The translations under genes were made by a program, and so were the position numbers. This document shows positions 20,056-60,768 of a DNA stretch of 64,000 bases, one piece after another. A model generated the notes under the pieces. The model was not told the origin of the DNA. It did not search any database and saw only the letters and a list, made by a program, of their open reading frames with translations. Origin of the DNA: an uncultured Candidatus Saccharibacteria bacterium (GTDB taxonomy: Bacteria > Patescibacteriota > Minisyncoccia > Phycocordibacterales > PALSA-1337); the NCBI GenBank assembly GCA_964367745.1, contig CAYIYK010000003.1, forward strand, positions 10,248 through 74,247, in the 5' to 3' direction. Every line of letters begins with the position of its first letter. Positions within the stretch are counted from its first letter, which is position 1.

Positions 20056-20724
20056 ATGAAAATCCTGATTATTGAAGACGATGTAGATATTTCCAGTTTC
20101 ATAAAGGACAATCTTACAGAGAGTACATATTCAGTTGAAGTCGCAAAGGATGGACCTGATGGATCATTTCTGGCCAGAACAAATTATCACGATGTTATCA
20201 TAATGGATTATTCACTTCCTTCAAAAGACGGAGTTTTGGTTTGTGAAGAGATAAGATCATCAGGTGTTGAAACACCCATAATATTCCTAACCGTACATAC
20301 AGACGTCAAAAAGAAGGTTAAAGCATTAGAAAAAGGTGCGGATGACTATATGACTAAACCTTTCTCTATCGAAGAGTTAAAAGCGAGGATACAAGCTCTA
20401 GTGCGTAGACCTAGGAAAATCGAAAGTCCTGTACTGATAGTTGGAGACCTAGTTTTGGATACACACAAAAGAACAGTTAGAAGAGGTGAAACACCTATTT
20501 ATCTAACTAGAAAGACTTATGATCTATTGGAATATCTTATGAGGAATAAAGGTATAGTGCTTTCAAGGGGATCTATAATGGAATATGTATGGAACTCAGA
20601 TAGTGATCCATTCTCAAATACCATAGAAGCACATATCCTAAACCTCAGAAAGAAAATCAATGTTAGAGGTAAAAAGGATATACTAAAGAATATTCCAGGT
20701 AGAGGTTATATTATGGGGTCCTAA
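20056..20724 (+). CDS. OmpR-family two-component response regulator (REC + winged-helix); no adjacent histidine kinase
   Basis: 222 aa. The N-terminal receiver MKILIIEDDVDI has the acceptor Asp in VIIMDYSLP. The C-terminal trans_reg_C-like wHTH ends ...GRGYIMGS. Confidence 0.85.
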   Translation: MKILIIEDDVDISSFIKDNLTESTYSVEVAKDGPDGSFLARTNYHDVIIMDYSLPSKDGVLVCEEIRSSGVETPIIFLTVHTDVKKKVKALEKGADDYMTKPFSIEELKARIQALVRRPRKIESPVLIVGDLVLDTHKRTVRRGETPIYLTRKTYDLLEYLMRNKGIVLSRGSIMEYVWNSDSDPFSNTIEAHILNLRKKINVRGKKDILKNIPGRGYIMGS

Positions 20725-22957
20725 ACTTACCTTCTTCTATTTGCTTTATAGCCTCATCTACTTGAGACTTTATAAGTGGGAATCTTTCTTTTGCTTTCTT
20801 TAGAAGTTCAATCGCTTGGTATTCTTGTTTACTCAATAGATAAACATAAGCTAGAGATGAATATACTTCTTGATTGTCTTGATCTTTAGCTAATATCTTC
20901 TTATATATTTCAATAGCTTTATCGTACTGTTTTGACAATACATAAGCATTTATAACTCTTGGATCGCTGAATACTTCGAAATCATCTCCAAATAGCTTCT
21001 TCGCTTTTACTTCTTCACCTGCCGTTATAAGAGCTGTAACGTAAGTAGTCTTGGCGATTGGATTGTCTGTTGCTGATTGATACGCTTTGTCTAATATCTC
21101 AACTGCTTCTTTATTTTTACCGATATTTAGATAGTTGACGGCTAGTTCAAATATTATACTTTGCTTGTTTGGAGAAAGTTCATTTGCTTTTTCAAGTAGT
21201 GGTGTAGCTGTATTAAAATCTCTTATAGTATCATAATAACTTCCACCAATAATATATATTCTTGCATCATTCGGAGTTTTCTTTATTTGATTTTCTATTT
21301 CTTTCTTTGCCAAATCGTAGAATGCAGCCTTTTTATCTTGTTGCATTTGTGGATTTTGTATTACATTTGCTGAACAATTTAATAGTTGCTCAACCGACTC
21401 TTGATTTGCAACTGTCTGTCTTAGTTTGAATATTTTTTCAAATGGTACTACTGATACTGTTTGAGGATTTGAACAAGCTATAAGTGCATTTATAAGTCCT
21501 GTATTCGCTTGTATAGCGCGCACATTCACAAAATACATTGAAGTAATGAATAAGATAACAACAACAGGTACATATACATAATCTCTTACTGTTTCAGCAT
21601 CTTCAGATATTGATTTGCTGTAATTTTTAAATATAAATAAATCTTTATTCTTTCTTAATGAATGAACAAAAGCGAGCAATGTAAAGAACATTACATAACT
21701 TGTTTGATTGTCGAATACGAATACATTGTGTATTGCATATCCTACCAATAGACCGATAAGTATAGATTTTTCACCAATAGTTTTTTCACTTTTAATGATA
21801 AAGATTAGAGAGATTAAATATAGAGCTAGATACGCAACTAATCCTAGTATTCCTCCGGCAACAAACCAATCTAGGAAAACACTGTGTGCTCGATCAAACC
21901 ATTGCTCATGTCTCCACATTTCAGGATTGTAATGTGAATTGAATATATAGTTAAAGTTCTCTTGCCCAACTCCGATAATTGCTGTCTTTGGGCTCTCTGT
22001 AATTCCCTTTATAGCCATAGGCCAAATAAATCTTCTTGCTTGAGTCTTTGTATCTGAAATAGATATAGAAGCCAATCTTCCCAATACTTCATTCTTTTGA
22101 ATCCAACTAGCATTTCTATTGAAATAAAATAGTGTACCGATAACAACTACTAGTAGAATAACTGAACCAGAAACTACTCTACTTATATTTGATTGACCAC
22201 TACTCTTTCTACCAAAAATTGTATAAATAGCACATGAAGCAATAATAGCAATCGTCCAACCTATGATAGTTCCTCGAGTTGCTGTTTGAAACATTATAAA
22301 AGAGAAAAATGCTGCGGCAATAGCATATGAATAGAACAAATGCTTCTTTGCAAAATAACTTATAGCCAAATATCCCGCAATAAATGCATTAAATAACATA
22401 TAAACCGCCATGTATGCAGAGTTACCTAGAGATGCATCGACTCTACTTCCTTGATGTGTTTCTGCCCAACCGAAAAACTGTGTTAGACCGTAAAGTGCAG
22501 TTATAAATCCAGAAACAATTACAACATTGAAAAACTTATGCCAACTCTCTTTTGTCTTAAGTACTGAAGATAGAACCATGAAATAACCCCAAAGGTGTAT
22601 TATCATCAACCAACCTTCCATTCTTTCGAAGTTTGACCAAATACTTCTAAGTGGATTTAGACCAGCTAAGTCAGCAATCAGAGCAATAAGAGTAAATATA
22701 CCTATAGAAATAGATATTGCATTGCATCGCGGAAGAACACTTCTATCTGTTCCGACAACACTAGTGCCTCTTTCTCTGAAAACAAGAATCAGCCATAGAG
22801 CAAAGACAATTTCAACAATTATTCTAAAAGCGAATCCTTTACCAGTGATGAATGGAAAGAATAAAGAATTAACGACGTAAGTTGGGATAAATGGGATTAC
22901 TGCTAAACCGATAATAATTGCGTATTTGATTAAAGTATTTATTGTTGCATTGTTCAT
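20711..22957 (-). CDS. O-antigen ligase-like (Wzy_C) polytopic membrane protein with C-terminal TPR repeats
   Basis: 748 aa. About 12 N-terminal TM helices include a large periplasmic loop typical of Wzy_C/O-antigen ligase/PglL-type proteins. The C-terminal roughly 250 aa are TPR-like (AYVYLLSKQEYQAIELLKKA...). Confidence 0.6.
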   Translation of the reverse strand: MNNATINTLIKYAIIIGLAVIPFIPTYVVNSLFFPFITGKGFAFRIIVEIVFALWLILVFRERGTSVVGTDRSVLPRCNAISISIGIFTLIALIADLAGLNPLRSIWSNFERMEGWLMIIHLWGYFMVLSSVLKTKESWHKFFNVVIVSGFITALYGLTQFFGWAETHQGSRVDASLGNSAYMAVYMLFNAFIAGYLAISYFAKKHLFYSYAIAAAFFSFIMFQTATRGTIIGWTIAIIASCAIYTIFGRKSSGQSNISRVVSGSVILLVVVIGTLFYFNRNASWIQKNEVLGRLASISISDTKTQARRFIWPMAIKGITESPKTAIIGVGQENFNYIFNSHYNPEMWRHEQWFDRAHSVFLDWFVAGGILGLVAYLALYLISLIFIIKSEKTIGEKSILIGLLVGYAIHNVFVFDNQTSYVMFFTLLAFVHSLRKNKDLFIFKNYSKSISEDAETVRDYVYVPVVVILFITSMYFVNVRAIQANTGLINALIACSNPQTVSVVPFEKIFKLRQTVANQESVEQLLNCSANVIQNPQMQQDKKAAFYDLAKKEIENQIKKTPNDARIYIIGGSYYDTIRDFNTATPLLEKANELSPNKQSIIFELAVNYLNIGKNKEAVEILDKAYQSATDNPIAKTTYVTALITAGEEVKAKKLFGDDFEVFSDPRVINAYVLSKQYDKAIEIYKKILAKDQDNQEVYSSLAYVYLLSKQEYQAIELLKKAKERFPLIKSQVDEAIKQIEEGKFRTP

Positions 22958-22992: not shown

Positions 22993-23940
22993 CTATTGAA
23001 ATTTCTTTAATTTATTGGCTATAAATATATCAGTATCTCTTCTAGATTCATAAGTCATACCTCCTGTATGTGGAGCGATGATTACATTTGAATATTCTTT
23101 TGCAAACTTCACTAATGGATGATTCTTGCAACTATTTTTTGTAAATAGAATCTCACCATCTAGAACGTCAGCTGTATAACCGGCAATCTTTTTTTGCTTT
23201 ATCATAGTCATCAAATCACCTTCATGAACTATTTTGCCTCTTGAAGTATTTATAAGATACGCAGTTTTCTTCATAAGACTCATAGTCTTTTTATTGAAAA
23301 GGAATTCTGTTTCTGGATTCAAATGTACGTGTATAGAAATAAAATCACTTTGTTTTATAAGCTCTTCGAAACTAACTTTTTTCCAATTTAGATTTGATGA
23401 TTCAACTTTTGGATCAGTGAATAGAACTTTCATACCCAAAGCCTCTCCATATCTTGCCATCCATTTTCCAAGTCTACCAAGTCCAACAACTCCCAATGTC
23501 TGACCATTCAGTGAATGCCCTTTGAACTTTTCTCTATTCCATTCCCCCTTTAGAACTGATTGAGTTGAACTAGGAATATGTCTTGAAGAAGATATGAGTA
23601 ATCCCAAAGCTAGTTCAGCAGTGCCAGTAATAGTATTTAGGAAATCATCTTCACCCTTTAGACTTAGAACTTTTATACCCTTTTCCTCAGCGTATTTTAA
23701 ATCGATATGATCCAAACCAGTTGTTGCGGTAACAAGGAACTTTAGATTTTTAGCTTTTGATAGGACTTCACTATTAAAGTTCAATCCCAAACCACAAACT
23801 ACTACATCATATTTTTCTATCTTTTTTAATAGTTCTTGATTTGTAGGTATAACATAATCAACCTTACCTAGAATGTTTAGAATCTTTTTTGCTTCAGGGT
23901 CGAAATCTTTACCGATTGTATTTAGTATTTTGTAGGCCAT
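22993..23940 (-). CDS. D-isomer-specific 2-hydroxyacid dehydrogenase (NAD-binding; glycerate/phosphoglycerate dehydrogenase-like)
   Basis: 315 aa with the NAD-binding motif GVVGLGRLGKWMARYGEALGMKV and the catalytic R/E/H arrangement (HTGGMT). Confidence 0.8.
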   Translation of the reverse strand: MAYKILNTIGKDFDPEAKKILNILGKVDYVIPTNQELLKKIEKYDVVVCGLGLNFNSEVLSKAKNLKFLVTATTGLDHIDLKYAEEKGIKVLSLKGEDDFLNTITGTAELALGLLISSSRHIPSSTQSVLKGEWNREKFKGHSLNGQTLGVVGLGRLGKWMARYGEALGMKVLFTDPKVESSNLNWKKVSFEELIKQSDFISIHVHLNPETEFLFNKKTMSLMKKTAYLINTSRGKIVHEGDLMTMIKQKKIAGYTADVLDGEILFTKNSCKNHPLVKFAKEYSNVIIAPHTGGMTYESRRDTDIFIANKLKKFQ

Positions 23941-23978
23941 TAAGTAATTATCTATAAAATGAAGGAAAAAGCAAATGG

Positions 23979-24422
23979 TTAAACCTTCGGCACCTTTATT
24001 ATAACCAACCTAGCTTTCGTAGAAGTCTTATGTTGATGTGGCTCTCCAGCAGGAATCCATAACCAATCTCCAGGTTTCATCACAACTTCTGTTCCACCCT
24101 TTATTTCTTTTGCTTTCCATTCCCTATCATCTATACTCCCATCAGCATTCTTTTTTACCCAAGGGTCTACCATTTCTCCTCCATAGATAAAGATAACTTC
24201 TCCTTCAAGACAAAACCATAGATCAGCTTCATGCTTGTGTATCTCTGCTTCATTTGAAATATTTATATCCTCCAATATATTCATAGGAACTTTATTCAAA
24301 GCAGAAAAAGCTTTTAGAGGTTCCAAAAGTTTTTTTGTTGGCGTGTCGGCACTAGGACTTGATAGAGTACTATCGATTAAATCTTTACTGATAAAAGCAC
24401 AATTTGATTTATTATTTTCCAT
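23979..24422 (-). CDS. Cupin-domain protein
   Basis: 147 aa. The cupin motifs in EADLWFCLEGEVIFIYGG...PGDWLWIPAGEPHQHK include His/Glu metal ligands. Confidence 0.5.
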   Translation of the reverse strand: MENNKSNCAFISKDLIDSTLSSPSADTPTKKLLEPLKAFSALNKVPMNILEDINISNEAEIHKHEADLWFCLEGEVIFIYGGEMVDPWVKKNADGSIDDREWKAKEIKGGTEVVMKPGDWLWIPAGEPHQHKTSTKARLVIIKVPKV

Positions 24423-24431
24423 TTAATTTAA

Positions 24432-26312
24432 TTAAAATTTAAATCCTTTTTTCTTTAATTCTTTTAACATGTACTCTGTGATAATCCAATCAAGTGGATA
24501 GTCTATATCTATAGATCTCTCTTTTGGTACTATATACCCTGCAATCTTATCTCCATATAACCTCTCTTCTTTCATAATCAAATCTCTTCTCATACAATAT
24601 ATTGCTGCACTTCTCTTGTATGCTACAGGTAGATCTTGTCTTCTTGTACCTTCTACTTCAGGAACAGAATATGCACTGATGAAGTCACCTTCTAATTTTT
24701 TAATCTTAATTGGATTTACATTACTTGGTACTTCAACTATTGATACTGCACTATCTGCTTTTGTATCTATAAGTTTTTGAATTGTTCCATCGATATCGTC
24801 TATAGTTCTAAAAGGTGAAGTTGGCTGAAGAATAACTACATAGTCGATAGTGATATTATTTTTCTTTTCATAAAAATCTATTGCATGTTGCATTACAGGA
24901 AGATGTGGAGTTGAATCTAGAGCCAATTCTTTTGGTCTCATAAAAGGTACATCTGCACCATACTTCTTACACACATCGGCAATCTCTTTGTCATCTGTTG
25001 AAACGATAAGATGATTTATCAATTTACTTTTCTTTGCAGCATCGATTGTATATGCAATAAGAGGTTTATTGCCAAGTTTCTTTATATTCTTACCCGGAAT
25101 ACCTTTTGACCCTCCGCGAGCTGTAATAACGCCAAGGACGTTTGGAGTTCTGTATTCCCTATCTACATGTTCTTCTGTAAGCGGTTCAAATTTCTTTATA
25201 TCTTTTATTATTTTTTTATCCAAAATATCATGGAAAAGATTCGAGAAAATTCCATTTAGATGAAGTCTTGGTCTCATAGCGTAAACCATATCACTCGTGA
25301 TTATTGTTCCAGCTTTAATATCTCTTGAAGCAACGAGTGTTTTGTTGAAATAAGGTCTAAACTTATTTTGTGCACCTTCCAATTCTTTTTCCTTTTGACC
25401 GTAGAAAATATTTGTATCTATTTTCTTATATTCATTTTTCTTAATACCAGAGACCAATTGTTTCATTTCTTCTGGAGTTACTGAAGCTTTATGGTCTGAA
25501 CCCCAAAGGCCTCGGTCTAGAGAAAAGTGTTTCTCTATAACCTGCGCACCCATTTTTACTGCAGCTAAAGGAATAGTATTATCTCCAACTGAATGATCAG
25601 AAAAACCGATGATCGCTTGAGGGTATTTTTCTCTAAAATATTCTATAGTAGAAAGGTTAAAAGCTTCTGGAGGACATGGATATTCACTAACGCAATATAG
25701 AATAATAATTGGTGACCCACGCTTTGTTATATAGTCAACAACGTCATCCAACTCTTTGTGACTAACCATTCCTGTTGAAATGATTATTGGTTTTTGTGTC
25801 TTTGTAATAAAGTCCAAAAGAACATGATCCTGAACATCACCAGAACCTACTTTCCAGAAAGGTACATCTAGATTCTCAAGCTTAACCGCTGCCATTCTAG
25901 ACATCGGAGTTGAGAAGAATATAATTCCCTTTTTTTCTGAATATCTTTTTATCTCTTTGAAGAATTCTATAGGTGCTTCTTCAGTATTTCTTTTAACCCA
26001 AGAATATCTATCACTGCCTTTGAAGTGCGGAGAAACTACATTTATATTTGCTTGTTCATCTTCAACTTCATGAGTTTGAAATTTCACAGCATGTGCACCA
26101 GCTTTTACTGCTTCGTCGATAAGCTTTTTTGCATTTTTAATATAGACTTTTAGAGGTTGAGACTCTTGTGTTTGTATAAAATTCTTACCGATTTCAGCAA
26201 TAACAAAAACTTTATCTTTTGATATGATCTTAGAGATAGCGTGAGGTTTCACTATTTTTGAATTTTTGTTCTTACTGGCTTTAGAAGATTTAACAGACTT
26301 TTTTGTTTTCAT
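24432..26312 (-). CDS. neuBA: Bifunctional nonulosonic (sialic) acid synthase NeuB-like + SAF domain + CMP-nonulosonate cytidylyltransferase NeuA-like
   Basis: The N-terminal roughly 330 aa match NeuB/PseI/LegI: VIAEIGKNF, KFQTH, FFSTPMS, KVGSGD, IIGFSDH, EKHFS, and the SAF segment KTLVASRDIKAGTIITSDM. The C-terminal roughly 230 aa match CTP_transf_3/NeuA (LGVITARGGSKGIPGKNIKKLGNKPLIAYTIDAA). A Lys-rich N-terminal tail is present. Confidence 0.8.
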   Translation of the reverse strand: MKTKKSVKSSKASKNKNSKIVKPHAISKIISKDKVFVIAEIGKNFIQTQESQPLKVYIKNAKKLIDEAVKAGAHAVKFQTHEVEDEQANINVVSPHFKGSDRYSWVKRNTEEAPIEFFKEIKRYSEKKGIIFFSTPMSRMAAVKLENLDVPFWKVGSGDVQDHVLLDFITKTQKPIIISTGMVSHKELDDVVDYITKRGSPIIILYCVSEYPCPPEAFNLSTIEYFREKYPQAIIGFSDHSVGDNTIPLAAVKMGAQVIEKHFSLDRGLWGSDHKASVTPEEMKQLVSGIKKNEYKKIDTNIFYGQKEKELEGAQNKFRPYFNKTLVASRDIKAGTIITSDMVYAMRPRLHLNGIFSNLFHDILDKKIIKDIKKFEPLTEEHVDREYRTPNVLGVITARGGSKGIPGKNIKKLGNKPLIAYTIDAAKKSKLINHLIVSTDDKEIADVCKKYGADVPFMRPKELALDSTPHLPVMQHAIDFYEKKNNITIDYVVILQPTSPFRTIDDIDGTIQKLIDTKADSAVSIVEVPSNVNPIKIKKLEGDFISAYSVPEVEGTRRQDLPVAYKRSAAIYCMRRDLIMKEERLYGDKIAGYIVPKERSIDIDYPLDWIITEYMLKELKKKGFKF

Positions 26313-26348
26313 ATGTTATATCCTATGCTATTTAAAAATTTTTGCAAC

Positions 26349-26408: not shown

Positions 26409-27347
26409 TCAAAGCCTGCGAGCGGTGACCACAACCGACGGGTGGTATGCGGTAAAGTTGAGGAGATTCTGGTCTGCCTCAAAAACGCTACGGATTCCAA
26501 TACCAACAATCTTGAGCTTGTCCTCAATCGGAAGCTTGTCGAGCGGTTCCCAACGGCACCAAGTGGCCCAGGCATTGCGAATGAAATCGACGATTCGACT
26601 CCCAACAACAGGAACGAGGGTTTCATTCACACGGAAGATCTCGAAACCATTTTGCTCGAGAGCAGACTTGAGATCAACAAGCGAGAATGCCTTTGCTTTG
26701 GGTGCCCAGAGATTTTCGCGAGTGAAATCAGGATACTTTGACCGAACATAATTGTAAGCTGCATCGTGCGCAATCCTATAAAGCGGATGCGAGAGTTCGG
26801 TTGTGATCTGATCCGGCCCCGGCTCAGACTTTGACCGGAAATCGTGCAAATTGCACTTCCAATCCGAATAATTGGACGGACCGAAGTCAAAACTGAGAGT
26901 TCCACGAACCTTGAGGCAAGAACTGATTGCTTTCAAGGAAGCATCGAGGGTATCCCGCAAAAGATGAAACATCTGACAACAGACAGCGGCGTCATGAAGA
27001 CCTACAACATGCCGATCCAGAAATTCCGCTTTCATTGTGTAAGCATTCACCCTCGGATTACCCATCAAATTGAGGAGAAGGAAATGCATCATGCTTTCAT
27101 TCGGCTCAACAGCCGAAACGAGCGCCTTCGTCCTCTTGAGAATAACTGCTGTACTGACACCAGTGCCGGCGCCAATCTCCAACACTGAATTGATTCCATT
27201 TTTGTTGGCTTGAATCGCCTCACTAACAACGAATTCAGCCATTTCAGTGTAGTATTTGTCACGACCATTGAAGGCCGAGTATGCTGCGCCGACATTCCCT
27301 TCGAAGAGTTTCGAACCGAGGATTGCACTAACATTACTTGTACTCAT
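26409..27347 (-). CDS. Class I SAM-dependent methyltransferase encoded by a GC-rich (~48% GC) island, probably horizontally acquired
   Basis: 312 aa containing motif I LEIGAGTGVSTAVIL. GC content is sharply elevated relative to flanks of about 30% GC. The high GC produces many spurious overlapping ORFs on both strands in the six-frame track. Confidence 0.7.
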   Translation of the reverse strand: MSTSNVSAILGSKLFEGNVGAAYSAFNGRDKYYTEMAEFVVSEAIQANKNGINSVLEIGAGTGVSTAVILKRTKALVSAVEPNESMMHFLLLNLMGNPRVNAYTMKAEFLDRHVVGLHDAAVCCQMFHLLRDTLDASLKAISSCLKVRGTLSFDFGPSNYSDWKCNLHDFRSKSEPGPDQITTELSHPLYRIAHDAAYNYVRSKYPDFTRENLWAPKAKAFSLVDLKSALEQNGFEIFRVNETLVPVVGSRIVDFIRNAWATWCRWEPLDKLPIEDKLKIVGIGIRSVFEADQNLLNFTAYHPSVVVTARRL

Positions 27348-28507: not shown

Positions 28508-28540
28508 CCCTCACGTAAAAAGCGTGGGGGTCTTTTTATT
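28508..28540. terminator. Hairpin terminator (ccctcacg-taaaaag-cgtggggg + TCTTTTTATT) between convergent genes
   Basis: An 8 bp stem with one G-U pair is followed by a T-tract. It overlaps the stop of the minus-strand NeuC gene and lies 30 bp after the stop of the plus-strand membrane protein. Confidence 0.5.
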
Positions 28541-29693
28541 CAACAAAAGTCTTTTGAGTATAAAGAGGTACAGTAGCTATAACCTCTGCAATCTTTTTAC
28601 TTGTACCTTCTGCAAAATATAGACTTGATGATTCGTATCTGCCTTTTTTAACTTGTTTCTCTATTGCTTTCTTTATAGCTTTAATATCATGGTCTACAGT
28701 TACTACATTTTCTGCACTCAATCTTTTGAATTGTCTATTACCAATATTCACCACAGGCAAACCCATAAAAGAAGATTCCTTTATTCCAGCTGATGAATTC
28801 CCTATCAAACATAGACTGTTATTCAATAGCCAAATAAAATCCTTTGGACCCATATATCGCATGAAGCGTATTTTATGTCCTTTAACTTCATCTTTAAAAA
28901 TTCGAAGCTCATGTGATATATCTTCTGCACCGGCATCAGCATTTGGCCAAAACCAAAGTGTTGGAATCTTTAGACTATGTACAGCATCAAGGATTTTCTT
29001 TGTATTTTCATGTACATGCTTCACATCCATAATATCAGGATGATACATAACTATTAGATATCCTTTCTTTAGATCAAAAAGGGCCCCACTTCCTGTTTTC
29101 TTTATATCGAATTTATGTTTATTTTTTGCTAATTTTTGTACAACTTCTATTTCTGGACTACCAAAATTGAAAACGTGAGATTCTCTTTCTCCAAGTCTCA
29201 ATACTCTTTTTCTTGCTGGTTCATTTGTTGTAAAGTGAATATGAGAAAGTTTTGTGATAGCGTGTCTTACACTTTCATCTATTGATCCAGATACATCACC
29301 ACCTTCTATGTGTGCGATAGGTATAGATAAATATGCAGCTGCAATTGTAGCTGATAGAACTTCAAATCTATCACCTCTTACCACAACGACATCAGGTTTA
29401 ATCTGATTAAAAAGTGTAGTGAATTCTATTATTCCTAGTCCTGTTGTTTTTGCTTTTACGATTGTATCATTCCCTTCTAGATTGAAATGTAGTTCGTATA
29501 GCTTGTTATATCCGTCTTCCGTCAAAAGTTTTCTTATATCAGCAAGTTTTGAAGTATAACGAGACAATAAAGCTGTACCTCCAACTATTATATGTAGGTC
29601 AATATCCTTTCTTTTCTTTAGTTCTTCTAGAATAAGAAAGTTACGACTATAGTGTATGAAACTTGTAATAACAAAGCAGACTTTTCTCTTCAT
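28536..29693 (-). CDS. neuC: UDP-N-acetylglucosamine 2-epimerase (hydrolysing), NeuC-like
   Basis: 385 aa of the Epimerase_2 family. Motifs VVVRGDRFEVL and AHIEGGDVSGSIDESVRHAITKLSHIHF match. Confidence 0.8.
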   Translation of the reverse strand: MKRKVCFVITSFIHYSRNFLILEELKKRKDIDLHIIVGGTALLSRYTSKLADIRKLLTEDGYNKLYELHFNLEGNDTIVKAKTTGLGIIEFTTLFNQIKPDVVVVRGDRFEVLSATIAAAYLSIPIAHIEGGDVSGSIDESVRHAITKLSHIHFTTNEPARKRVLRLGERESHVFNFGSPEIEVVQKLAKNKHKFDIKKTGSGALFDLKKGYLIVMYHPDIMDVKHVHENTKKILDAVHSLKIPTLWFWPNADAGAEDISHELRIFKDEVKGHKIRFMRYMGPKDFIWLLNNSLCLIGNSSAGIKESSFMGLPVVNIGNRQFKRLSAENVVTVDHDIKAIKKAIEKQVKKGRYESSSLYFAEGTSKKIAEVIATVPLYTQKTFVE

Positions 29694-30681: not shown

Positions 30682-32040
30682 TTATTTAATTAAATTAATT
30701 ATATAATCTGCAATTCTCTTTCCTGATAAACCGTCTGTATAACTTGTCTGTTCTTTTACCAAGATCTCTCTTTCTTTACTCTTTACTGATGGATCATCAA
30801 GATATTTATTTATTGAATCCAATAACTCTTGTTTGCTATTAACTAGATCGATAGCACCGGTCTTTAATGCATTCTTATAATGCCAAGTTCTATAGTATTG
30901 TACAGGAGATTTCAATAATTTTGGAATTATATTTATTTCAAAATTTATATTTATTACAGGTTTATTAAAAATACTTGCATCGATACTAATACTTGAAGCA
31001 TAGCAAACCAAAACAGACATATGATAAAGAGTATCCTGCAAATGTTCTAGATCTGCTTTATTCATATCCCAATCTACACCTCTTTTTGTACCAAAACGTA
31101 TACCAGGCTTATCATATTTTAGATCTGGTCTCTTTGATATTTCTTCTTCATCAACAAAGTCATTTGGTTGGAATCGGACCAATAATTCACATTCGTATTT
31201 CAATTCATTTGAGTGAATAGTTTTTTGCAAAAGGTCGATTATATCCCAATCTGCAGAACTGAACGCTCTCCCCATTGGAGCGTATACTATCAATTTCTTA
31301 TCACTTGATATTTTTATTTTATTAAAAAATTCTTCTCTTAAAATAGGTTTCCTTGTGTAGAAGAAATCGTATTGTGGCAGACCGCTGATAAAAATATCTT
31401 CCGATTTCATTTCATTCAAATCAATCATCTCCTTTTTTACGATATCGTTAAAAACTATAGCTTTATCAGGTAATAATCTTAAAATGCATCTTGATGTAAC
31501 TTTGTCCCAAGAGTTTATATAGCCTATCGTTTTTATTTTTCTTTTTTTTGCTTCTCTTAAAAGATTGATTTCTATTTCTTCAAATAGATGTGCGGTGAAA
31601 ACAAGATCTGGTGAATATTTATCAAAATATTCACTATATGTATTGTCTTTTATTAAAATAAAATCCAAATATCGTACGATTCTTCTTATCACAGGCCAAG
31701 CCAAAATATAGTTCGATACTTTACCAAAATAGTATCCGAAAAATCTTCCTTCATATTCACTTACCATTTTCCTTTTTAAATCTGTTGTTTCAGTTCTAAG
31801 TAAAGTGAATTTCATCTTTGAGAAAAACCCATCAAACATTGGTACAGATTTTTGCTCGACAAATTCAAATACTATTCTTGGATCATTGAATTCATTTTTA
31901 TAATAATCAACTTTTTGTTGTGATTTTGTAAATAGAACAATTTTAATATCTTTATTTAAAAGAAGATTTTCCAAAATCGGTGTTCGTAGAATATTTTTTA
32001 CTTCTACACCCTCAAAGATTGTTACAAATATTGTCTTCAT
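30682..32040 (-). CDS. Surface-carbohydrate biosynthesis transferase-like protein (paralog 1 of 3; TagB/TagF-like or capsule-synthesis-like GT-B fold, speculative)
   Basis: 452 aa. It shares conserved blocks with ORFs 32037..33365 and 36479..37873, including the N-terminal MKTIF, the GYINSWDKVTS(R/K)(C/G)I block and V/IYAPMGR (reminiscent of the YAPT(W/F)R block of CDP-glycerol glycerophosphotransferases). The function is not established. Confidence 0.45.
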   Translation of the reverse strand: MKTIFVTIFEGVEVKNILRTPILENLLLNKDIKIVLFTKSQQKVDYYKNEFNDPRIVFEFVEQKSVPMFDGFFSKMKFTLLRTETTDLKRKMVSEYEGRFFGYYFGKVSNYILAWPVIRRIVRYLDFILIKDNTYSEYFDKYSPDLVFTAHLFEEIEINLLREAKKRKIKTIGYINSWDKVTSRCILRLLPDKAIVFNDIVKKEMIDLNEMKSEDIFISGLPQYDFFYTRKPILREEFFNKIKISSDKKLIVYAPMGRAFSSADWDIIDLLQKTIHSNELKYECELLVRFQPNDFVDEEEISKRPDLKYDKPGIRFGTKRGVDWDMNKADLEHLQDTLYHMSVLVCYASSISIDASIFNKPVININFEINIIPKLLKSPVQYYRTWHYKNALKTGAIDLVNSKQELLDSINKYLDDPSVKSKEREILVKEQTSYTDGLSGKRIADYIINLIK

Positions 32041-33365
32041 TTATTTATTGATTCTAGTATTGCATTAAAAAGTCTTTCAGTATTTTTGCCATCCAAAAAT
32101 CCAGTTTCCATCTCTGCTAGTTTCTTTCTTTTATCTTTATCCAGACTAGGATTTTTAACGTATTCTTCTACATAGTCTTTAAATTGACGCATAGATTCAG
32201 CCAGCTTCACACCTCCACTCTCTATTACTGGAATAAAATTGTTATAATCATAATATCTTCTTATACTATCAAAATATTCCCTTTTTTCATGTCCGTCAAA
32301 ACCAAAAAGGATTATTGGTTTATCCATATATGCAGAATCCAAAACTAAAGTTGATGGTGAGCTGATAACCAATTCTGACCAGAACAATGTATGAGCAAGA
32401 TGTATATCATCATCTTTATCGATCTCTGTAATTTTTATATTATCAAATTTAGGTTTTGCTCTGTCATACATAACCTTAATATTTGGAAACTTCGGACTAT
32501 TCTCCAATTCTCTAACATAATCTCCAGGTGGAAGTCTGACTAGAAGTTGATAATCATTTGGTAAAGTCTTATCCAAAATATCTACAATATCTCTGTCTAC
32601 AGTATTTTTTCTCAAATATCGATCACCTAGAGGTATAAATAAAGCCAGCTTTTTATTCTGATCACCACCTATTTTTTCTATAAATTCTTTTCTATTTGTA
32701 AATACATTCTTTTTATAATCATCATAGTGTGGAATTCCGACAATAGATATTATTGATTCATTTATTCCTTGAAGATCTTTTGCTTCATCTTTAATGATAT
32801 TGTTCCAAACAAAAAGTCTATTCGGAATCGTTCGAATGATACCTTTTGAAGTAAGATTGTCCCAAGAACGAACCATACCGATAGTCTTTATACCTGAGGA
32901 ATTACCTTCATTTAAAATCGCTATATCGATTTCGCTTTGAATATCGGTAGCGAATACGCAATCAGGTTTATACTGCTCAAATAATTTATCAAATTTTTTA
33001 TTTTTATAACTTACTCTTTCCAAGAATCTTACGAATTTATGCCCGATTTTATTTGATAATAAATAAGTTAAATACATTCCACTCCCTTTCATCTCTGTCT
33101 TCCTTTTTATATAAAGAGTTTTTGTATTTAATGCTGTTAGCGAAAGATACTTTAATAAATTTTCTCTTTTAGCATTTTTAAATTCTATTCCTTCAACAAC
33201 TACCCCATCTCTTTCAAAACTTTCTTTAAAAAAACTCTCTTTATTTTTTGGAGCAATTATTACAACTTTTATTTCATTCTTAACAAAGAGATCCAAAATT
33301 CCAGATGAAAGAATATTTCTTGATATTAGAGGATGGCAACTAGTTATAAAAATTGTCTTTTTCAT
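32037..33365 (-). CDS. Surface-carbohydrate biosynthesis transferase-like protein (paralog 2 of 3)
   Basis: 442 aa and a paralog of 30682..32040. It has the same MKKTIFIT start and the same RSWDNLTSKGI block. The two genes are adjacent and overlap by 4 bp. Confidence 0.45.
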   Translation of the reverse strand: MKKTIFITSCHPLISRNILSSGILDLFVKNEIKVVIIAPKNKESFFKESFERDGVVVEGIEFKNAKRENLLKYLSLTALNTKTLYIKRKTEMKGSGMYLTYLLSNKIGHKFVRFLERVSYKNKKFDKLFEQYKPDCVFATDIQSEIDIAILNEGNSSGIKTIGMVRSWDNLTSKGIIRTIPNRLFVWNNIIKDEAKDLQGINESIISIVGIPHYDDYKKNVFTNRKEFIEKIGGDQNKKLALFIPLGDRYLRKNTVDRDIVDILDKTLPNDYQLLVRLPPGDYVRELENSPKFPNIKVMYDRAKPKFDNIKITEIDKDDDIHLAHTLFWSELVISSPSTLVLDSAYMDKPIILFGFDGHEKREYFDSIRRYYDYNNFIPVIESGGVKLAESMRQFKDYVEEYVKNPSLDKDKRKKLAEMETGFLDGKNTERLFNAILESINK

Positions 33366-36478: not shown

Positions 36479-37828
36479 TTAAATAATTTTTCCTAAAAAA
36501 TCGACATTTCTCTTATAAGACAAACCGTCTCTAAAGAAAATAAAATCATTGAATACTTTCTCTTGTTGCTTCTTTTTTACATCGTGATTTTTCAAACAAA
36601 TATTAACATGTTCAACGATATTATCGAAACTCTTTGAGAGAAAAACTGCATCAGCATCTACTATAGGTTTATAGTGACGGAAATTGTATGCTCTATGATA
36701 CTTTTCTGGATAATCTATATTTACAACTGGTTTTCCGAAGATAAAAGATTCAAGGGTCATTGTTGAAACGTAGTTTATAACTACATCAGAATATTTTAGA
36801 GTTAATTTTAGATTCAAAATATCATCTTCATGTATTTCAATTCTTGTACCCATTTCTTGTGAAAGTAACTTGCCTGGATATTCAACATGGAGATTTGGAA
36901 TTTTACTATCAATATATACTTTGAACTTATCAAACTCTTCTTTTGGATGCATTCGCACTAGAATATTGGGTTTACCATCGAATTTGCCTTGATCACGAGC
37001 TTTCAATAGTTCACCAAGAAGAATATCTTCATCAGGGTAATTCCCCTTTGTAACTGTAGTTATAAGTATTGTTTTTTCTTTTGGATTCAATCCTTTACTC
37101 AAAAGGAACGCTTCTCTAGACTGTTCACTTGGATTGTTTACAGAATAAGAGTCGAAACGCATTGTACCTGAGACAAATACATTATCTTCTGAATATCCAT
37201 ATTCTTTAACTGCGGTATTTTTTATTATTTTATTCCAAACGATTAGATAATCTGGTCTTCTAAAATGCATTCCTCCATTGTGAAGATTGTCCCAACTGAA
37301 GTTTACTGCAGCAGTCTTTATACCAAACTTCTTAGCATATATTATTGCTTCAGCATCAGGATGACTGAAGCCAGGAGTTGCTGTTAGAAACATAACTGGG
37401 TTGTATTCTTTAATCTTTTCTTCAAGAGCCTTTGATCTTGGTATAAAAATTTTCTCAAGTTTAGTAAATAAATCATTTGTCCAAAAAGATGCAGGGGCAA
37501 TGTAAGAAAAATACTTCAAAAATCTTCTTCTCCAATCCTTCATCCCCTTTTCTTTATTTCTTACAACCACTGGTTCAAAATCGTATTTACGGATTATTGA
37601 ATATCTAAAATATTTACCAAATAGATTCCAAAATCCTGGATTTTGTAATTTCCAAGGAACATAAGTCACATTTTCTGATTTAAAATATGGTTTATTATCT
37701 TCACAAAAAGCTTGTGGGGACATAAATACGACTACTTTGTATTTTGTTGATAAATACTTTATATAATCTGTACGCAAAAAATCTGATGAGTAAACAAAGT
37801 TCGAAATAAAAAGAAATATTGTTTTCAT
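36479..37828 (-). CDS. Surface-carbohydrate biosynthesis transferase-like protein (paralog 3 of 3); ORF extends to 37873, paralog-supported start MKTIF at 37828
   Basis: It shares the MKTIFLFIS start, the NFSWDNLHNGG block and the (I/V)W/FN motif with the other two paralogs. Confidence 0.45.
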   Translation of the reverse strand: MKTIFLFISNFVYSSDFLRTDYIKYLSTKYKVVVFMSPQAFCEDNKPYFKSENVTYVPWKLQNPGFWNLFGKYFRYSIIRKYDFEPVVVRNKEKGMKDWRRRFLKYFSYIAPASFWTNDLFTKLEKIFIPRSKALEEKIKEYNPVMFLTATPGFSHPDAEAIIYAKKFGIKTAAVNFSWDNLHNGGMHFRRPDYLIVWNKIIKNTAVKEYGYSEDNVFVSGTMRFDSYSVNNPSEQSREAFLLSKGLNPKEKTILITTVTKGNYPDEDILLGELLKARDQGKFDGKPNILVRMHPKEEFDKFKVYIDSKIPNLHVEYPGKLLSQEMGTRIEIHEDDILNLKLTLKYSDVVINYVSTMTLESFIFGKPVVNIDYPEKYHRAYNFRHYKPIVDADAVFLSKSFDNIVEHVNICLKNHDVKKKQQEKVFNDFIFFRDGLSYKRNVDFLGKII

Positions 37829-37873
37829 AGAAAGGTATTGTAGCATATATGTTATAATCCTTATTATTACCAC

Positions 37874-40389: not shown

Positions 40390-41814
40390 GTGATAACCAT
40401 ATATAATCTTAAAAAATACAATTTTATGAAAAATATATCCAAAAAGGCTTTCATTATCATATTTTTAATAATCGTATCCGTAAATTTCCTTTATGCTATA
40501 TCATATAAAATAAAACCAGCTGTAGATGCTGAAGCATATGATGAAATAGCGACAAATATCGTTGAACACGAACAGTACAGATCGAGCTTTAACGTTCCTC
40601 TAGAACTTGATGGTTCAATATCAAGAATCGGTCCTGGATATGAATTGTTCTTAGCTACAAATTATCTATTCTTTGGAAAACATTTTTGGATTATTTGGTT
40701 ATTCCAAGCAATACTTTATGCTTTGACTATTGTAATGCTTGGCTTGATGAGTCTAAAGTTATTCCCTGTTTTAAATCAAAACACAAAAATCCTTTATGGT
40801 TCGATGATTGTCTTTGGTCTACTTATCGATATTATTCAGTTGAATGCAATGATAATGACCGAATCCCTTTTCCTATTTCTTCTAACTCTTTCTTTCTTTA
40901 TTTGGTCACAAATTTACAATCATGATCCAAAGATAAAATATGGACTGTGGATTATCCTTGGTTTCGTCTTGGGATTGTTAACCCTTACAAGACCAACAGG
41001 TCTTCTAGTTTTTGTTTTATTAAGTGGAGCAACTATATATAGGAAAAAACTTGGTTCAATACTTGCAATATGCCTTATTGCTATTCCTTTTATCTTAATC
41101 CAAGTTCCTTGGTTTGTAAGAAATTATCATGTATATAATCAATTCATTTTTCACTCTAGTGCTGATGGTCTGAATTTCTTAAGTGGCAACTATCCCGGTA
41201 ATCATGGAGAATTTACTTCTGATTTCCCTTTTTATAAAGAATTAAAAGAGAAATACCCATCCCCAGTAGAATTAAATAGTGAAGCAAAGAAGTGGTATAA
41301 AGATTTTGTATTACATCACCCTATTCAAGCTACAAAAATACTAATTGAAAAAGCTTTAATATTCTTTTCACTTACCAAAACTTCTGGCTTTTGGTTCCAT
41401 TATTTTGGAAAGACTGATCAGATACTTACGATCCTCATATCAATATTTCAAAACTTTATAATACTTGGAAGTATTATATTGTATGGAACGATGGTTGTTA
41501 AAAGATGGATAAATAAACAATTCCTTCTACCAGACATATTCCTTGCTTCAACTTTTGTAGTATTAACAGTAACTCCAATAATTTCAGTTATAGCAAATAG
41601 ACATAGACTTCCACTAGTTATAATGTCTCTGCCTTTATTCGTCTATGTTGCATATATAATAAAAAATAACTTTAGAAAAATGAAATGGGAAATCGCTATT
41701 ACGATTCTTATCCTTATCGCAAGTACAGGTTTTGATCTATTCTTACAATTCGATAAATTCAAATCAAAGATACATTCAGTGAATAAAAATCCAGCAGAAA
41801 CAGTAACTAAATAA
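40390..41814 (+). CDS. GT-C fold membrane glycosyltransferase (ArnT/PMT/GT39/83-like)
   Basis: 474 aa, polytopic. The Asp-containing first periplasmic loop (PAVDAEAYDEIATNIVEHEQY) resembles GT-C DE/DD motif regions. Confidence 0.5.
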   Translation: MITIYNLKKYNFMKNISKKAFIIIFLIIVSVNFLYAISYKIKPAVDAEAYDEIATNIVEHEQYRSSFNVPLELDGSISRIGPGYELFLATNYLFFGKHFWIIWLFQAILYALTIVMLGLMSLKLFPVLNQNTKILYGSMIVFGLLIDIIQLNAMIMTESLFLFLLTLSFFIWSQIYNHDPKIKYGLWIILGFVLGLLTLTRPTGLLVFVLLSGATIYRKKLGSILAICLIAIPFILIQVPWFVRNYHVYNQFIFHSSADGLNFLSGNYPGNHGEFTSDFPFYKELKEKYPSPVELNSEAKKWYKDFVLHHPIQATKILIEKALIFFSLTKTSGFWFHYFGKTDQILTILISIFQNFIILGSIILYGTMVVKRWINKQFLLPDIFLASTFVVLTVTPIISVIANRHRLPLVIMSLPLFVYVAYIIKNNFRKMKWEIAITILILIASTGFDLFLQFDKFKSKIHSVNKNPAETVTK

Positions 41815-55823: not shown

Positions 55824-55875
55824 ATGGAGTTCTATATGTTTAATATTTTACCATGGTTTTTTATATTAAGTATAG

Positions 55876-57444: not shown

Positions 57445-57495
57445 AAAACACCCTATGGGTGTTTTTTGATGTAACCGTATTGTTACCAGATTGTA

Positions 57496-57975
57496 TTAAG
57501 ACGCAGGGCAAGCTGTAGCATTTATTGCAAGAACAGTTGTAACTTGTCTTGAAGCGCCTGTATTATCTACACACCATCCAACTGGTGTACCACTCACTGA
57601 AGCCTTCAGCGGAGCCCAGATAACCCATGTTGCTGATGCATCGTGACATTGTGCAGTGTTCCAAGTTGAAGCAGTTCCATCAGCAAATACCGCAGCTGTT
57701 CCTCCGAAAGCGGCTTGAGCAGCCATTACACTGTCTCCAATAACATTAGCACCTGTTAACGCACATACGGCATCATAAACATTAGTTCCATTATCATAGA
57801 ACAATTCTGCCTCAGCTCTAGCACCTGCTAGGTTTGACTTTATAGCTGTATCAGCTCCCTTTGAACGTGCTGTGTTTAGTGAAGCCAAAACAACTGATGA
57901 CAATATACCGATAATAGCGATAACTACAAGCAACTCAATCAATGTAAAACCTTTTTGCAAATATGATTTCTTCAT
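57496..57975 (-). CDS. pilA: Type IV pilin (prepilin with class III signal peptide)
   Basis: The N-terminus MKKSYLQKGFTLIELLVVIAIIGILSSVVLA has the canonical G/FTLIE cleavage and N-methylation motif with Glu+5. The hydrophobic alpha1 helix is followed by four Cys residues in the C-terminal domain. Confidence 0.85.
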   Translation of the reverse strand: MKKSYLQKGFTLIELLVVIAIIGILSSVVLASLNTARSKGADTAIKSNLAGARAEAELFYDNGTNVYDAVCALTGANVIGDSVMAAQAAFGGTAAVFADGTASTWNTAQCHDASATWVIWAPLKASVSGTPVGWCVDNTGASRQVTTVLAINATACPAS

Positions 57976-58085
57976 AACGAAATAATTAACTTAATAAATA
58001 AAACTAATAATTCAACTTATACACGTAAGTATATCAAACCTCAAAAAAATAGCGCAATATCGTATGGGGATAAGTAGTTGATAAC

Positions 58086-59294: not shown

Positions 59295-59302
59295 ATAAAA
59301 TA

Positions 59303-60361: not shown

Positions 60362-60381
60362 ATAATTTAATTATGAAAAAA

Positions 60382-60768
60382 CTATTTTTTAATATTTGAA
60401 CAAATCTTCTCAACTTCAGACATAACTTCAGAAGGAATTGTGGTTGCTTTTATTATATAACCATCAACATTCAAAGCTTTTGCTCTAGCAATATCATCAG
60501 GAAGACCTTGATTTGTTAGCATGATTATAACTGATTTCTTTACCAAACCTTCTTTTCTTAGATTTGAAAGTAATTCGATACCATCCATTCCTGGCATAAC
60601 AATATCTAAAAGTAGAATATCAGGTTCCAATCCATCTCTTATTAACTTCAACGCTTCTTCTGTATCTGCTGATGTGTGGACGATAAAATCATTCTTTGAA
60701 AACTTCAGAGAATACATATCGAGTAGAAACTTGTCATCATCTACAAAAAGTATTGAGCGTTGTTTCAT
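60382..60768 (-). CDS. Standalone response-regulator receiver (CheY-like, PilH/PilG-like)
   Basis: 128 aa. The REC fold shows ILFVDDD, the acceptor Asp in ILLLDIVMPGMDG, and a conserved Lys (IIKAT). There is no output domain. Confidence 0.8.
   Translation of the reverse strand: MKQRSILFVDDDKFLLDMYSLKFSKNDFIVHTSADTEEALKLIRDGLEPDILLLDIVMPGMDGIELLSNLRKEGLVKKSVIIMLTNQGLPDDIARAKALNVDGYIIKATTIPSEVMSEVEKICSNIKK

What the first reader, a model, noticed from the sequence alone, without database searches (positions are those of the whole stretch)
24432..26312. Single-polypeptide NeuB-SAF-NeuA fusion (synthase + CMP-activating enzyme)
Nonulosonic acid synthase and the cytidylyltransferase are normally separate proteins. 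Here a single 626 aa ORF carries all NeuB motifs and the SAF domain, followed by a complete CTP_transf_3 (NeuA) domain. A Lys-rich N-terminal tail is also present. Fusion implies substrate channelling from condensation to CMP activation.
Basis: seen in the sequence. Interest (0 to 1): 0.55.

Follow-up and report, generated by a model that had tools for sequence, protein, structure and literature searches.

The report
Fused sialic-acid synthase and CMP-activating enzyme
A Saccharibacteria (TM7) genome joins two consecutive enzymes of sialic-acid-type sugar synthesis, normally adjacent separate genes, into one intact 626-residue protein; the fusion is real but is a modest evolutionary variant of a well-known pathway.

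Summary
Window 24432..26312 (-) is one uninterrupted 626-aa ORF with NeuB (4e-66), SAF and CTP_transf_3/NeuA (1e-27) domains. It is not an assembly artefact. Its 90% cluster has 15 distinct sequences from NCBI, JGI, ENA and Logan, and all 13 that span the junction share the linker DREYRTPN. A sister Saccharibacteria contig differs at 145 nt, 123 at third codon positions (dN/dS 0.04; junction 11 synonymous, 0 nonsynonymous). Most catalytic and metal residues checked against N. meningitidis NeuB and CMP-Neu5Ac synthetase are present; five substrate-pocket positions differ. No in-frame start could express NeuA alone. The closest relatives (72-81% identity) keep the same operon with neuB and neuA adjacent but out of frame. 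So the fusion arose recently, by loss of the stop codon (TAA to GAA) plus a 1-nt frame correction, with no added linker. The architecture is not unique. I found 55 NeuA-NeuB fusions, at least three distant NeuB-NeuA fusions and a NeuB-NeuC-NeuA triple fusion, mostly in unnamed metagenome sequences. JGI already auto-annotates this protein as bifunctional. Substrate channelling is untested. A NeuC neighbour, with no dehydratase or aminotransferase, favours a Neu5Ac-type sugar, but the sugar is unproven. Interest is modest.

The parts
24432..26312 (-). Whole fused gene, 626 aa plus stop: NeuB-SAF-NeuA bifunctional enzyme
   Evidence: ORF; Pfam; identical protein in the public collection as P0400.
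26321..26324 (-). AGGA Shine-Dalgarno-like motif 8 nt upstream of the ATG
   Evidence: Upstream sequence read (...ATAGCATAGGATATAACAT|ATG).
26211..26312 (-). Lys/Ser-rich N-terminal tail, residues 1-34 (12 K, 7 S)
   Evidence: It is also present in the unfused relatives P0002, P0003, P0005, P0007 and P0012. 11 of 34 positions vary among alleles and dN/dS is 0.13.
25431..26210 (-). NeuB catalytic TIM-barrel domain, residues 35-294
   Evidence: Pfam NeuB 4.2e-66. PDB 1xuu N. meningitidis NeuB 2e-46. E40, K77, Q79, T135, K154, S157, S179, Y211, H240, E260, H262 and D273 match NmNeuB E25, K53, Q55, T110, K129, S132, S154, Y186, H215, E234, H236 and D247. These residues are invariant in all 10 full-length alleles.
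25164..25337 (-). SAF (antifreeze-like) domain, residues 326-383, carrying R347 (equivalent to NmNeuB R314)
   Evidence: Pfam SAF 4.9e-6; alignment to 1xuu; R347 and P348 invariant.
25140..25163 (-). Fusion junction D384-N391 (DREYRTPN). Codon 25155..25157 (GAA, E386) stands where relatives have the neuB stop codon TAA
   Evidence: DNA alignment with the split loci L001 and L002. Identical in 13 of 13 cluster members that span it. 11 synonymous and 0 nonsynonymous differences over residues 365-405 against L005.
24435..25139 (-). NeuA (CMP-nonulosonate synthetase, CTP_transf_3) domain, residues 392-626
   Evidence: Pfam 1.1e-27. PDB 6ifd 1e-32 and 1eyr 1e-23. R399, S402, K403, K408, N409, R459, Q496, T498, K536, R558, Y572, D602 and D604 match NmCSS R12, S15, K16, K21, N22, R71, Q104, T106, K142, R165, Y179, D209 and D211. 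dN/dS is 0.048.
28536..29693 (-). NeuC-type hydrolysing UDP-GlcNAc 2-epimerase, the preceding pathway step
   Evidence: TIGR03568 NeuC_NnaA 342.7 bits, above its cut-off of 235.9. Conserved next to neuB in the syntenic loci.
30682..33365 (-). Two tandem Glyphos_transf-fold transferases, candidate users of the CMP-sugar (inferred)
   Evidence: Pfam PF04464. Weak BFO_1060-family glycosyltransferase hits, well below cut-off. Conserved in L001 and L002.
22993..24422 (-). Downstream operon partners: cupin (23979..24422) and D-2-hydroxyacid dehydrogenase (22993..23940)
   Evidence: Pfam. Synteny in L002-L004. 2-Hacid_dh is found fused to NeuA in P0165.

Best explanation
The gene encodes a genuine bifunctional enzyme of a Candidatus Saccharibacteria (TM7) surface-glycan locus. 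The N-terminal NeuB/SAF module condenses phosphoenolpyruvate with a 2-acetamido hexose. That hexose is most likely ManNAc, supplied by the NeuC-type hydrolysing epimerase three genes upstream. The product is a free nonulosonic acid, most likely Neu5Ac or a close derivative. The C-terminal NeuA module then uses CTP to convert it into the CMP-activated donor. That donor would be consumed by the transferases, Wzy_C ligase and flippase of the same locus. The fusion arose recently from two adjacent, out-of-frame genes of a conserved neuC-neuB-neuA operon: the neuB stop codon TAA became GAA, the neuA ATG was lost, and a net 1-nt deletion restored the frame. The two proteins are therefore joined end to end with no added linker. 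Shown here: ORF integrity, intact catalytic residues in both halves, purifying selection on both halves and on the junction, origin from adjacent genes, and NeuA being expressible only as part of the fusion. Inferred: the enzymatic activities themselves, the identity of the sugar, and any kinetic benefit. The likely benefit is obligatory 1:1 co-expression and proximity of consecutive active sites rather than a demonstrated channel.
For: Single ORF. NeuB, SAF and CTP_transf_3 domains. Catalytic and metal residues of both enzymes conserved against solved structures and invariant in 10 alleles. Against the sister contig L005/L006 there are 145 nt differences, 123 at third codon positions. dN/dS is 0.041 overall, 0.021 for NeuB and 0.048 for NeuA, and the junction shows 11 synonymous and 0 nonsynonymous changes. 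The cluster holds 15 distinct sequences from four data sources, and all 13 that span the junction have an identical linker. There is no in-frame ATG, GTG or TTG between codons 364 and 431. The syntenic split-gene loci L001-L004, L007 and L008 carry the same operon. The junction DNA alignment shows TAA to GAA and a 1-nt gap. The NeuC equivalog scores above its cut-off. The 64-kb window has no 4,6-dehydratase, DegT aminotransferase or N-acetyltransferase.
Against: There is no biochemical evidence. Both halves score below the NCBIfam equivalog cut-offs (NeuB 252 against 400, PseI 214 against 340, PseF 172 against 206), so substrate specificity is unresolved. JGI names close NeuA relatives either CMP-Neu5Ac synthetase or CMP-diacetyllegionaminate synthase. 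Several substrate-pocket positions differ from the Neisseria enzymes: NeuB N184 is Ser; NeuA S82 is His, N175 is Ser and F192/F193 are Leu/Tyr. Genes for a legionaminic or pseudaminic acid precursor could lie elsewhere in the genome. Post-translational cleavage into two proteins cannot be excluded.
Confidence: 0.85

Rival explanations
1. Assembly or sequencing artefact: a homopolymer or indel error merged two adjacent genes into one apparent ORF.
For: The closest relatives have neuB and neuA adjacent, separated by 1 nt or overlapping by 4 bp and out of frame, so a single indel could in principle mimic a fusion.
Against: Removing the stop needs a substitution (TAA to GAA) as well as an indel. 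The same junction appears in 13 distinct sequences from NCBI, JGI, ENA and Logan assemblies. It also appears in a MAG only 92% identical at nucleotide level, where the differences are almost all synonymous, including across the junction.
Confidence: 0.02
2. A decaying fusion: the gene is real, but one half (for example NeuA) is non-functional, with another neuA elsewhere in the genome doing the work.
For: The rest of the genome cannot be inspected. Some NeuA pocket residues differ from the N. meningitidis enzyme.
Against: dN/dS for the NeuA half is 0.048 and all catalytic and Mg-binding residues are kept in every allele. The differing pocket residues are typical substrate-specificity positions rather than catalytic ones, which is inference from knowledge of NmCSS.
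Confidence: 0.04
3. The fusion is functional but makes and activates a different nonulosonic acid (a legionaminic or pseudaminic acid type, Kdn, or a novel methylated or acylated derivative) rather than Neu5Ac.
For: No equivalog cut-off is met. The best NeuA-half NCBIfam hit is PseF. JGI labels close relatives as legionaminate enzymes. The locus is rich in methyltransferases and also holds a PhyH dioxygenase and a 2-hydroxyacid dehydrogenase, families found fused to NeuA elsewhere. The distant same-order fusion P0214 sits beside DegT and WbqC genes.
Against: The only precursor enzyme in the window and in the syntenic loci is NeuC-type. The window has no dehydratase, aminotransferase or acetyltransferase. 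The NeuB half scores highest to Neu5Ac synthase in both NCBIfam and the PDB.
Confidence: 0.35
4. True substrate channelling: the fusion creates a defined tunnel or electrostatic path that hands the free sugar acid from the NeuB site to the NeuA site without release.
For: The two reactions are consecutive. The join has essentially no linker, which places the NeuA N-terminal CTP-binding loop next to the SAF domain that caps the NeuB active site; that is an inference from the known NeuB structure. Fusions of these enzymes recur independently.
Against: Nothing here tests it. Both domain orders, and versions with NeuC inserted between the two domains, are viable, which is hard to reconcile with one specific channel geometry. 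Fusion of overlapping genes in compact genomes can be nearly neutral.
Confidence: 0.15

Closest known systems
Neisseria meningitidis NeuB (SiaC), N-acetylneuraminate synthase, PDB 1XUU/1XUZ
   Same: TIM barrel plus C-terminal SAF/antifreeze-like domain. E 2e-46 over residues 58-366. Metal ligands H215/H236, catalytic E25/E234, PEP-binding K53/K129/S132/S154, D247 and the SAF-domain R314 are all conserved.
   Different: A stand-alone 349-aa protein. The query adds a Lys-rich N-terminal tail and an insertion of about 8 residues after the AEIGxN motif. N184 is replaced by Ser. The query scores below the TIGR03569 equivalog cut-off and continues directly into NeuA.
CMP-N-acetylneuraminate synthetases: Vibrio cholerae 6IFD and N. 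meningitidis 1EYR
   Same: CTP_transf_3 fold. E 1e-32 and 1e-23. R12, K21, R71, Q104, T106, K142, R165, Y179 and D209/D211 are conserved, and the dimerisation segment is present without deletions.
   Different: Stand-alone proteins of about 230-250 aa. The query has His for S82, Ser for N175 and Leu-Tyr for F192-F193 in the sugar pocket. It has no start codon of its own.
Split neuB and neuA genes of sister Saccharibacteria (L001/P0003+P0280; L002=L007/P0006+P0281; L008)
   Same: 72-83% identity to each half. Same operon order: neuC-(EamA)-neuB-neuA-cupin-2-HADH-Wzy_C.
   Different: Two genes, with a 1-nt spacer, an 11-nt spacer or a 4-bp overlap, and neuA out of frame relative to neuB. NeuB ends ...KKHIKK* at the point where the query reads through.
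Metagenomic NeuA-NeuB (reverse order) fusions, e.g. P0018 (a Woesearchaeota member in its cluster) and P0123 (Patescibacteria)
   Same: The same two enzymes in one polypeptide of 550-630 aa. 55 such proteins were retrieved.
   Different: Opposite domain order. Only 30-50% identity to the query's halves, and independent origin.
Other natural fusions in sialic-acid pathways: animal GNE (epimerase-kinase), E. coli K1 NeuA (synthetase-esterase), Leptospira NeuB-phosphatase (PMC3438082)
   Same: Consecutive or accessory steps of nonulosonic-acid metabolism merged into one ORF. The Leptospira and GNE examples are described in PMC3438082. The E. coli NeuA bifunctionality is cited in PMC6137143.
   Different: Different partner domains. 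None joins the synthase to the cytidylyltransferase.

Membership tests
NeuB family nonulosonic-acid synthase (PF03102 + SAF PF08666) | Pfam NeuB and SAF domains above their gathering scores | tested here: met
   NeuB 223.3 bits against 22.1; SAF 27.4 bits against 21.
NeuB family nonulosonic-acid synthase (PF03102 + SAF PF08666) | Metal ligands (two His), catalytic Glu residues, PEP-binding Lys/Ser, and the SAF-domain Arg that completes the partner active site | tested here: met
   H240, H262, E40, E260, K77, K154, S157, S179, D273 and R347 align to NmNeuB H215, H236, E25, E234, K53, K129, S132, S154, D247 and R314 (E40 by direct reading of the AEIG motif). They are invariant in 10 alleles.
N-acetylneuraminate synthase proper (TIGR03569 equivalog) | Score at or above the curated equivalog cut-off | tested here: not met
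   252.4 bits against a cut-off of 399.65. PseI TIGR03586 also fails, 214.5 against 340.25. Substrate subfamily is therefore unassigned.
CMP-nonulosonate synthetase (CTP_transf_3, PF02348; NeuA/LegF/PseF) | Pfam domain above its gathering score, and the N-terminal ARGGSKG...KN nucleotide-binding motif | tested here: met
   97.8 bits against 22.6. Motif at residues 398-409.
CMP-nonulosonate synthetase (CTP_transf_3, PF02348; NeuA/LegF/PseF) | Catalytic Arg/Lys, QPTSP motif, trans-acting Arg of the dimer partner, and two Mg-binding Asp | tested here: met
   R399, K408, R459, Q496, T498, R558, D602 and D604 align to NmCSS R12, K21, R71, Q104, T106, R165, D209 and D211.
CMP-nonulosonate synthetase, specific equivalog (PseF TIGR03584) | Score at or above the curated cut-off | tested here: not met
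   172.5 bits against 205.7.
Natural bifunctional fusion protein (as opposed to two genes) | Continuous frame confirmed independently, purifying selection across the junction, and no independent start for the second domain | tested here: met
Neu5Ac three-step bacterial pathway (NeuC-NeuB-NeuA) | Hydrolysing UDP-GlcNAc 2-epimerase in the same locus, and no di-N-acetyl-trideoxyhexose precursor genes | tested here: met
   TIGR03568 342.7 bits against 235.9. No dehydratase, aminotransferase or acetyltransferase in the 64 kb window. The rest of the genome was not seen.
Substrate-channelling bifunctional enzyme | Kinetic or structural evidence that the intermediate is transferred without release | not testable with these tools
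   Requires coupled-enzyme kinetics or a structure of the oligomer.
Enzymatic activities themselves | PEP-dependent aldol condensation and CTP-dependent CMP-sugar formation by the protein | not testable with these tools
   No member of this clade has been assayed. No paper was found.

The most novel reading that the evidence does not exclude
NeuA, NeuB and NeuC have been fused repeatedly and independently: B-A, A-B, B-C, B-C-A and B-B-A. The named examples are all ultra-small episymbiont lineages (Patescibacteria/Saccharibacteria and DPANN archaea). This recurrence could reflect selection for keeping free sialic acid off the cytoplasmic pool, i.e. real metabolic channelling, or protection of a host-mimicking sugar in cells that live attached to a host. 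If so, these natural fusions, the window's zero-linker NeuB-NeuA among them, would be compact single-gene CMP-sialic-acid modules with better coupled kinetics than separate enzymes.
Probability: 0.2. Interest if true: 0.5.

Novelty: new variant of a known kind. Interest (0 to 1): 0.3.

Why it matters
It is a clean, datable example of how a bifunctional enzyme is born. Sister genomes still carry the two abutting, out-of-frame genes, and the fused form is already under strong purifying selection. It also shows that Saccharibacteria, reduced-genome episymbionts, invest in a sialic-acid-like surface sugar. A naturally linker-free synthase/activase could be useful as a compact part for CMP-sialic acid production. 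It does not reveal new chemistry or a new kind of system, and automated annotation (JGI) already labels the protein as bifunctional.

Tried and rejected
1. Full-length structure prediction. Two attempts to build a combined alignment (query plus stand-alone NeuB plus stand-alone NeuA homologues) gave A3 and A4. The second attempt repeated the query to add weight. In both, MAFFT laid the half-length sets on top of each other. The alignments were unusable and modelling was dropped, because residue-level PDB alignments already answered the active-site question and a monomer model could not test channelling.

2. Literature. Searches for a described natural NeuB-NeuA fusion and reading of candidate papers found only other pathway fusions (Leptospira NeuB-phosphatase, GNE, E. 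coli NeuA-esterase) and an operon cassette, not a protein fusion.

3. Flanking genes. PDB searches of the neighbouring cupin and of a Glyphos_transf protein gave only generic or insignificant hits.

4. Internal translation start for NeuA. Rejected, because no in-frame canonical start lies between codons 364 and 431.

5. Alternative start at GTG codon 21, which would remove the Lys tail. It has no Shine-Dalgarno-like motif, whereas M1 has AGGA, so it is considered unlikely.

6. Sugar identity from homology. NCBIfam, PDB ranking and source names disagree. The assignment rests on gene context only.
Full report
**1. Observation**

Window 24432..26312 on the minus strand is a single 626-aa ATG-initiated ORF with no internal stop.
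- Pfam finds NeuB at residues 64-294 (E 4.2e-66), SAF at 326-383 (E 4.9e-6) and CTP_transf_3 at 394-612 (E 1.1e-27), all above their gathering scores.
- An AGGA Shine-Dalgarno-like motif lies 8 nt upstream of M1.
- The first 34 residues hold 12 Lys.

**2. Is the fusion real?**

- The exact protein is in the public collection as P0400 (NCBI and Logan, on a 76.5-kb contig).
- Its 90% cluster holds 15 distinct sequences from NCBI, JGI/IMG, ENA and Logan. Ten are full 626-aa alleles, 92-99.8% identical to one another.
- All 13 members that span the junction carry the same linker...EEHVDREYRTPNVLGVITARGGSKG....
- A sister contig (L005, and the near-identical L006 from a Candidatus Saccharibacteria MAG) is 92.3% identical in DNA. 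Of 145 differences, 123 are at third codon positions.
- Nei-Gojobori dN/dS is 0.041 overall, 0.021 for the NeuB/SAF part and 0.048 for the NeuA part.
- Residues 365-405 across the junction show 11 synonymous and 0 nonsynonymous changes.
- This is the signature of a translated, selected reading frame, not of an assembly error or a decaying pseudogene.

**3. Are both active sites intact?**

Against N. meningitidis NeuB (1XUU, E 2e-46):

| NmNeuB residue(s) | Role | Query residue(s) |
|---|---|---|
| H215, H236 | metal ligands | H240, H262 |
| E25, E234 | catalytic Glu | E40, E260 |
| K53, Q55, T110, K129, S132, S154 | PEP and substrate contacts | K77, Q79, T135, K154, S157, S179 |
| Y186, D247 | substrate pocket | Y211, D273 |
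| R314 | SAF-domain Arg | R347 |
| N184 | substrate pocket | S209 (differs) |

Against CMP-Neu5Ac synthetases (6IFD, E 1e-32; 1EYR, E 1e-23):

| NmCSS residue(s) | Query residue(s) |
|---|---|
| R12, S15, K16, K21, N22 | R399, S402, K403, K408, N409 |
| R71 | R459 |
| Q104, T106 | Q496, T498 |
| K142 | K536 |
| R165 | R558 |
| Y179 | Y572 |
| D209, D211 | D602, D604 |
| S82, N175, F192/F193 | His, Ser, Leu/Tyr (differ) |

- The roles assigned to these residues come from my knowledge of the published Neisseria structures.
- The differing residues all lie in the sugar pocket.
- The NeuB residues tabulated above are invariant in all ten full-length alleles, and the NeuA motifs are kept apart from a conservative I601V.
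- No in-frame ATG, GTG or TTG lies between codons 364 and 431. A NeuA module with its essential N-terminal motif can therefore only be made as part of the fusion.

**4. Origin**

The organism is a Candidatus Saccharibacteria (TM7) bacterium (record titles).
- The nearest relatives of each half are stand-alone proteins: NeuB 72-81% identical at about 365-380 aa, and NeuA up to 83% identical at about 237-240 aa.
- Their loci (L001-L004, L007, L008) carry the same operon as the window: methyltransferase, two Glyphos_transf genes, methyltransferase, neuC, (EamA), neuB, neuA, cupin, 2-hydroxyacid dehydrogenase, Wzy_C.
- In those loci neuB and neuA are adjacent but out of frame. L001 has a 1-nt spacer, L002 a 4-bp ATGA overlap and L008 an 11-nt spacer.
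- The junction DNA alignment shows L001 ...AAA TAA C ATG AAT AAG TAT AAT ATC... against window ...AGG GAA TAC AGA ACT CCA AAC GTC....
- So the stop codon is now GAA (E386), the neuA ATG is gone, and a net 1-nt deletion brings neuA into frame.
- The linker is simply the old NeuB C-terminus, the converted stop codon and the old NeuA N-terminus. No spacer was added.
- The closest relative, at 81% identity (P0002), is unfused, while the window and L006 lineages (dS about 0.4) share the junction. The event is therefore recent and confined to a narrow Saccharibacteria sublineage.
- The fusion has persisted while its flanks changed. L006 lacks both the 40%-GC methyltransferase at 26409..27347 and the cupin at 23979..24422.

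**5. How unusual is the architecture?**

An exhaustive HMMER search of 1.84 billion cluster representatives was classified by BLAST against the two halves and by Pfam. Together with the first homologue search it gave:
- 55 NeuA-NeuB (reverse-order) fusions of 495-633 aa;
- same-order NeuB-SAF-NeuA fusions in at least three distant lineages (P0127, P0214, P0261), only about 35% identical to the query and to each other, with P0214 in a different gene context;
- a NeuB-NeuC-NeuA triple fusion (P0010, 986 aa);
- NeuB-NeuC fusions (P0036, P0122);
- a NeuB-NeuB-SAF-NeuA protein (P0156).

The few with source names are Patescibacteria and a Woesearchaeota archaeon. JGI's pipeline already calls the window's cluster 'sialic acid synthase SpsE/CMP-N-acetylneuraminic acid synthetase'. 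Joining NeuB and NeuA is thus a recurrent, independently derived theme in uncultured lineages. The window's event is one more, in the rarer order. I found no paper that describes or assays a natural NeuB-NeuA fusion. The described pathway fusions are GNE, the Leptospira NeuB-phosphatase (PMC3438082) and the E. coli NeuA-esterase.

**6. What it makes and how it works**

- The only precursor enzyme in the locus is a NeuC-type hydrolysing UDP-GlcNAc 2-epimerase (TIGR03568, 342.7 bits against a cut-off of 235.9).
- The 64-kb window contains no 4,6-dehydratase, DegT aminotransferase or N-acetyltransferase.
- This favours the three-step route UDP-GlcNAc to ManNAc to Neu5Ac to CMP-Neu5Ac.
- Both halves nevertheless fall below every NCBIfam equivalog cut-off, and source names for relatives disagree.
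- The locus is also rich in methyltransferases and holds a PhyH dioxygenase and a 2-hydroxyacid dehydrogenase. So a modified or different nonulosonic acid remains plausible, at roughly one chance in three.
- Channelling is not shown. Both domain orders, and NeuC-interrupted versions, exist. That argues for a general proximity or co-expression benefit, or for near-neutral fusion of overlapping genes in compact genomes, rather than a specific tunnel.

**7. The Lys-rich tail**

The tail is not linked to the fusion. Unfused relatives (P0002, P0003, P0005, P0007, P0012) have similar tails and P0006 lacks one. It is the most variable part of the protein, with 11 of 34 positions varying among alleles and dN/dS 0.13. 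Its role is unknown.

**8. Verdict**

This is a real, selected, recently formed bifunctional nonulosonic-acid synthase / CMP-activating enzyme in Saccharibacteria. It is a new variant of a well-known enzyme pair. It is not unique in sequence space and is already recognised by automated annotation. It is uncharacterised biochemically. Interest is modest (0.3).

Noticed in passing
P0010 (986 aa); also P0036, P0122, P0156: A NeuB-NeuC(Epimerase_2)-NeuA triple fusion places the whole UDP-GlcNAc to CMP-sialic-acid route in one polypeptide. NeuB-NeuC fusions and a NeuB-NeuB-SAF-NeuA protein also exist. L009 and L014 have the matching unfused order neuB-neuC-neuA with abutting genes.
   Followed up: partly
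window 22993-23940 (-); P0165, P0139, P0215; L013 4711-5673: The D-2-hydroxyacid dehydrogenase next to the fusion belongs to a family that is fused to NeuA elsewhere (P0165). In L013 it sits between neuA and neuB. NeuA is also found fused to a methyltransferase (P0139) and to a LarA_N lactate-racemase-like domain (P0215). This suggests an unknown modification of the sugar, or acyl or lactyl chemistry tied to it.
   Followed up: partly
window 26409-27347 (-): A 312-aa class-I methyltransferase lies immediately upstream of the fusion in a block of about 40% GC, against about 33% in the flanks. It is absent from the sister genome L006 and from L001 and L002, so it is probably a recent insertion.
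   Followed up: partly
window 23979-24422 (-): A small cupin directly downstream gives weak hits to DUF386/YhcH and to N-acetylneuraminate anomerase (E about 5e-4, far below cut-off). PDB gives only generic cupins. It is conserved in L002-L004 and L007 but lost in L006.
   Followed up: partly
window 30682-33365 (-): Two tandem paralogous Glyphos_transf-fold proteins give weak BFO_1060-family glycosyltransferase hits and have no solved relative. They are conserved with neuC/neuB/neuA in the sister loci, so they are candidate transferases for the CMP-sugar.
   Followed up: partly
window 53949-62507 (-): A TraG/TrwB-like coupling-protein ATPase is followed by type IV pilus genes: a pilin with the N_methyl motif, T2SSF, and two T2SSE ATPases, one with an MshEN domain.
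   Followed up: no
window 20711-22957 (-): A 748-aa protein combines a Wzy_C O-antigen-ligase domain with C-terminal TPR repeats. It is conserved at the end of the operon in L001, L002 and L006.
   Followed up: no
window 36479-37873 (-), 40390-41814 (+), 55876-57444 (-): Three ORFs of 464-522 aa inside or next to the glycan and pilus loci have no Pfam family at the thresholds used.
   Followed up: no
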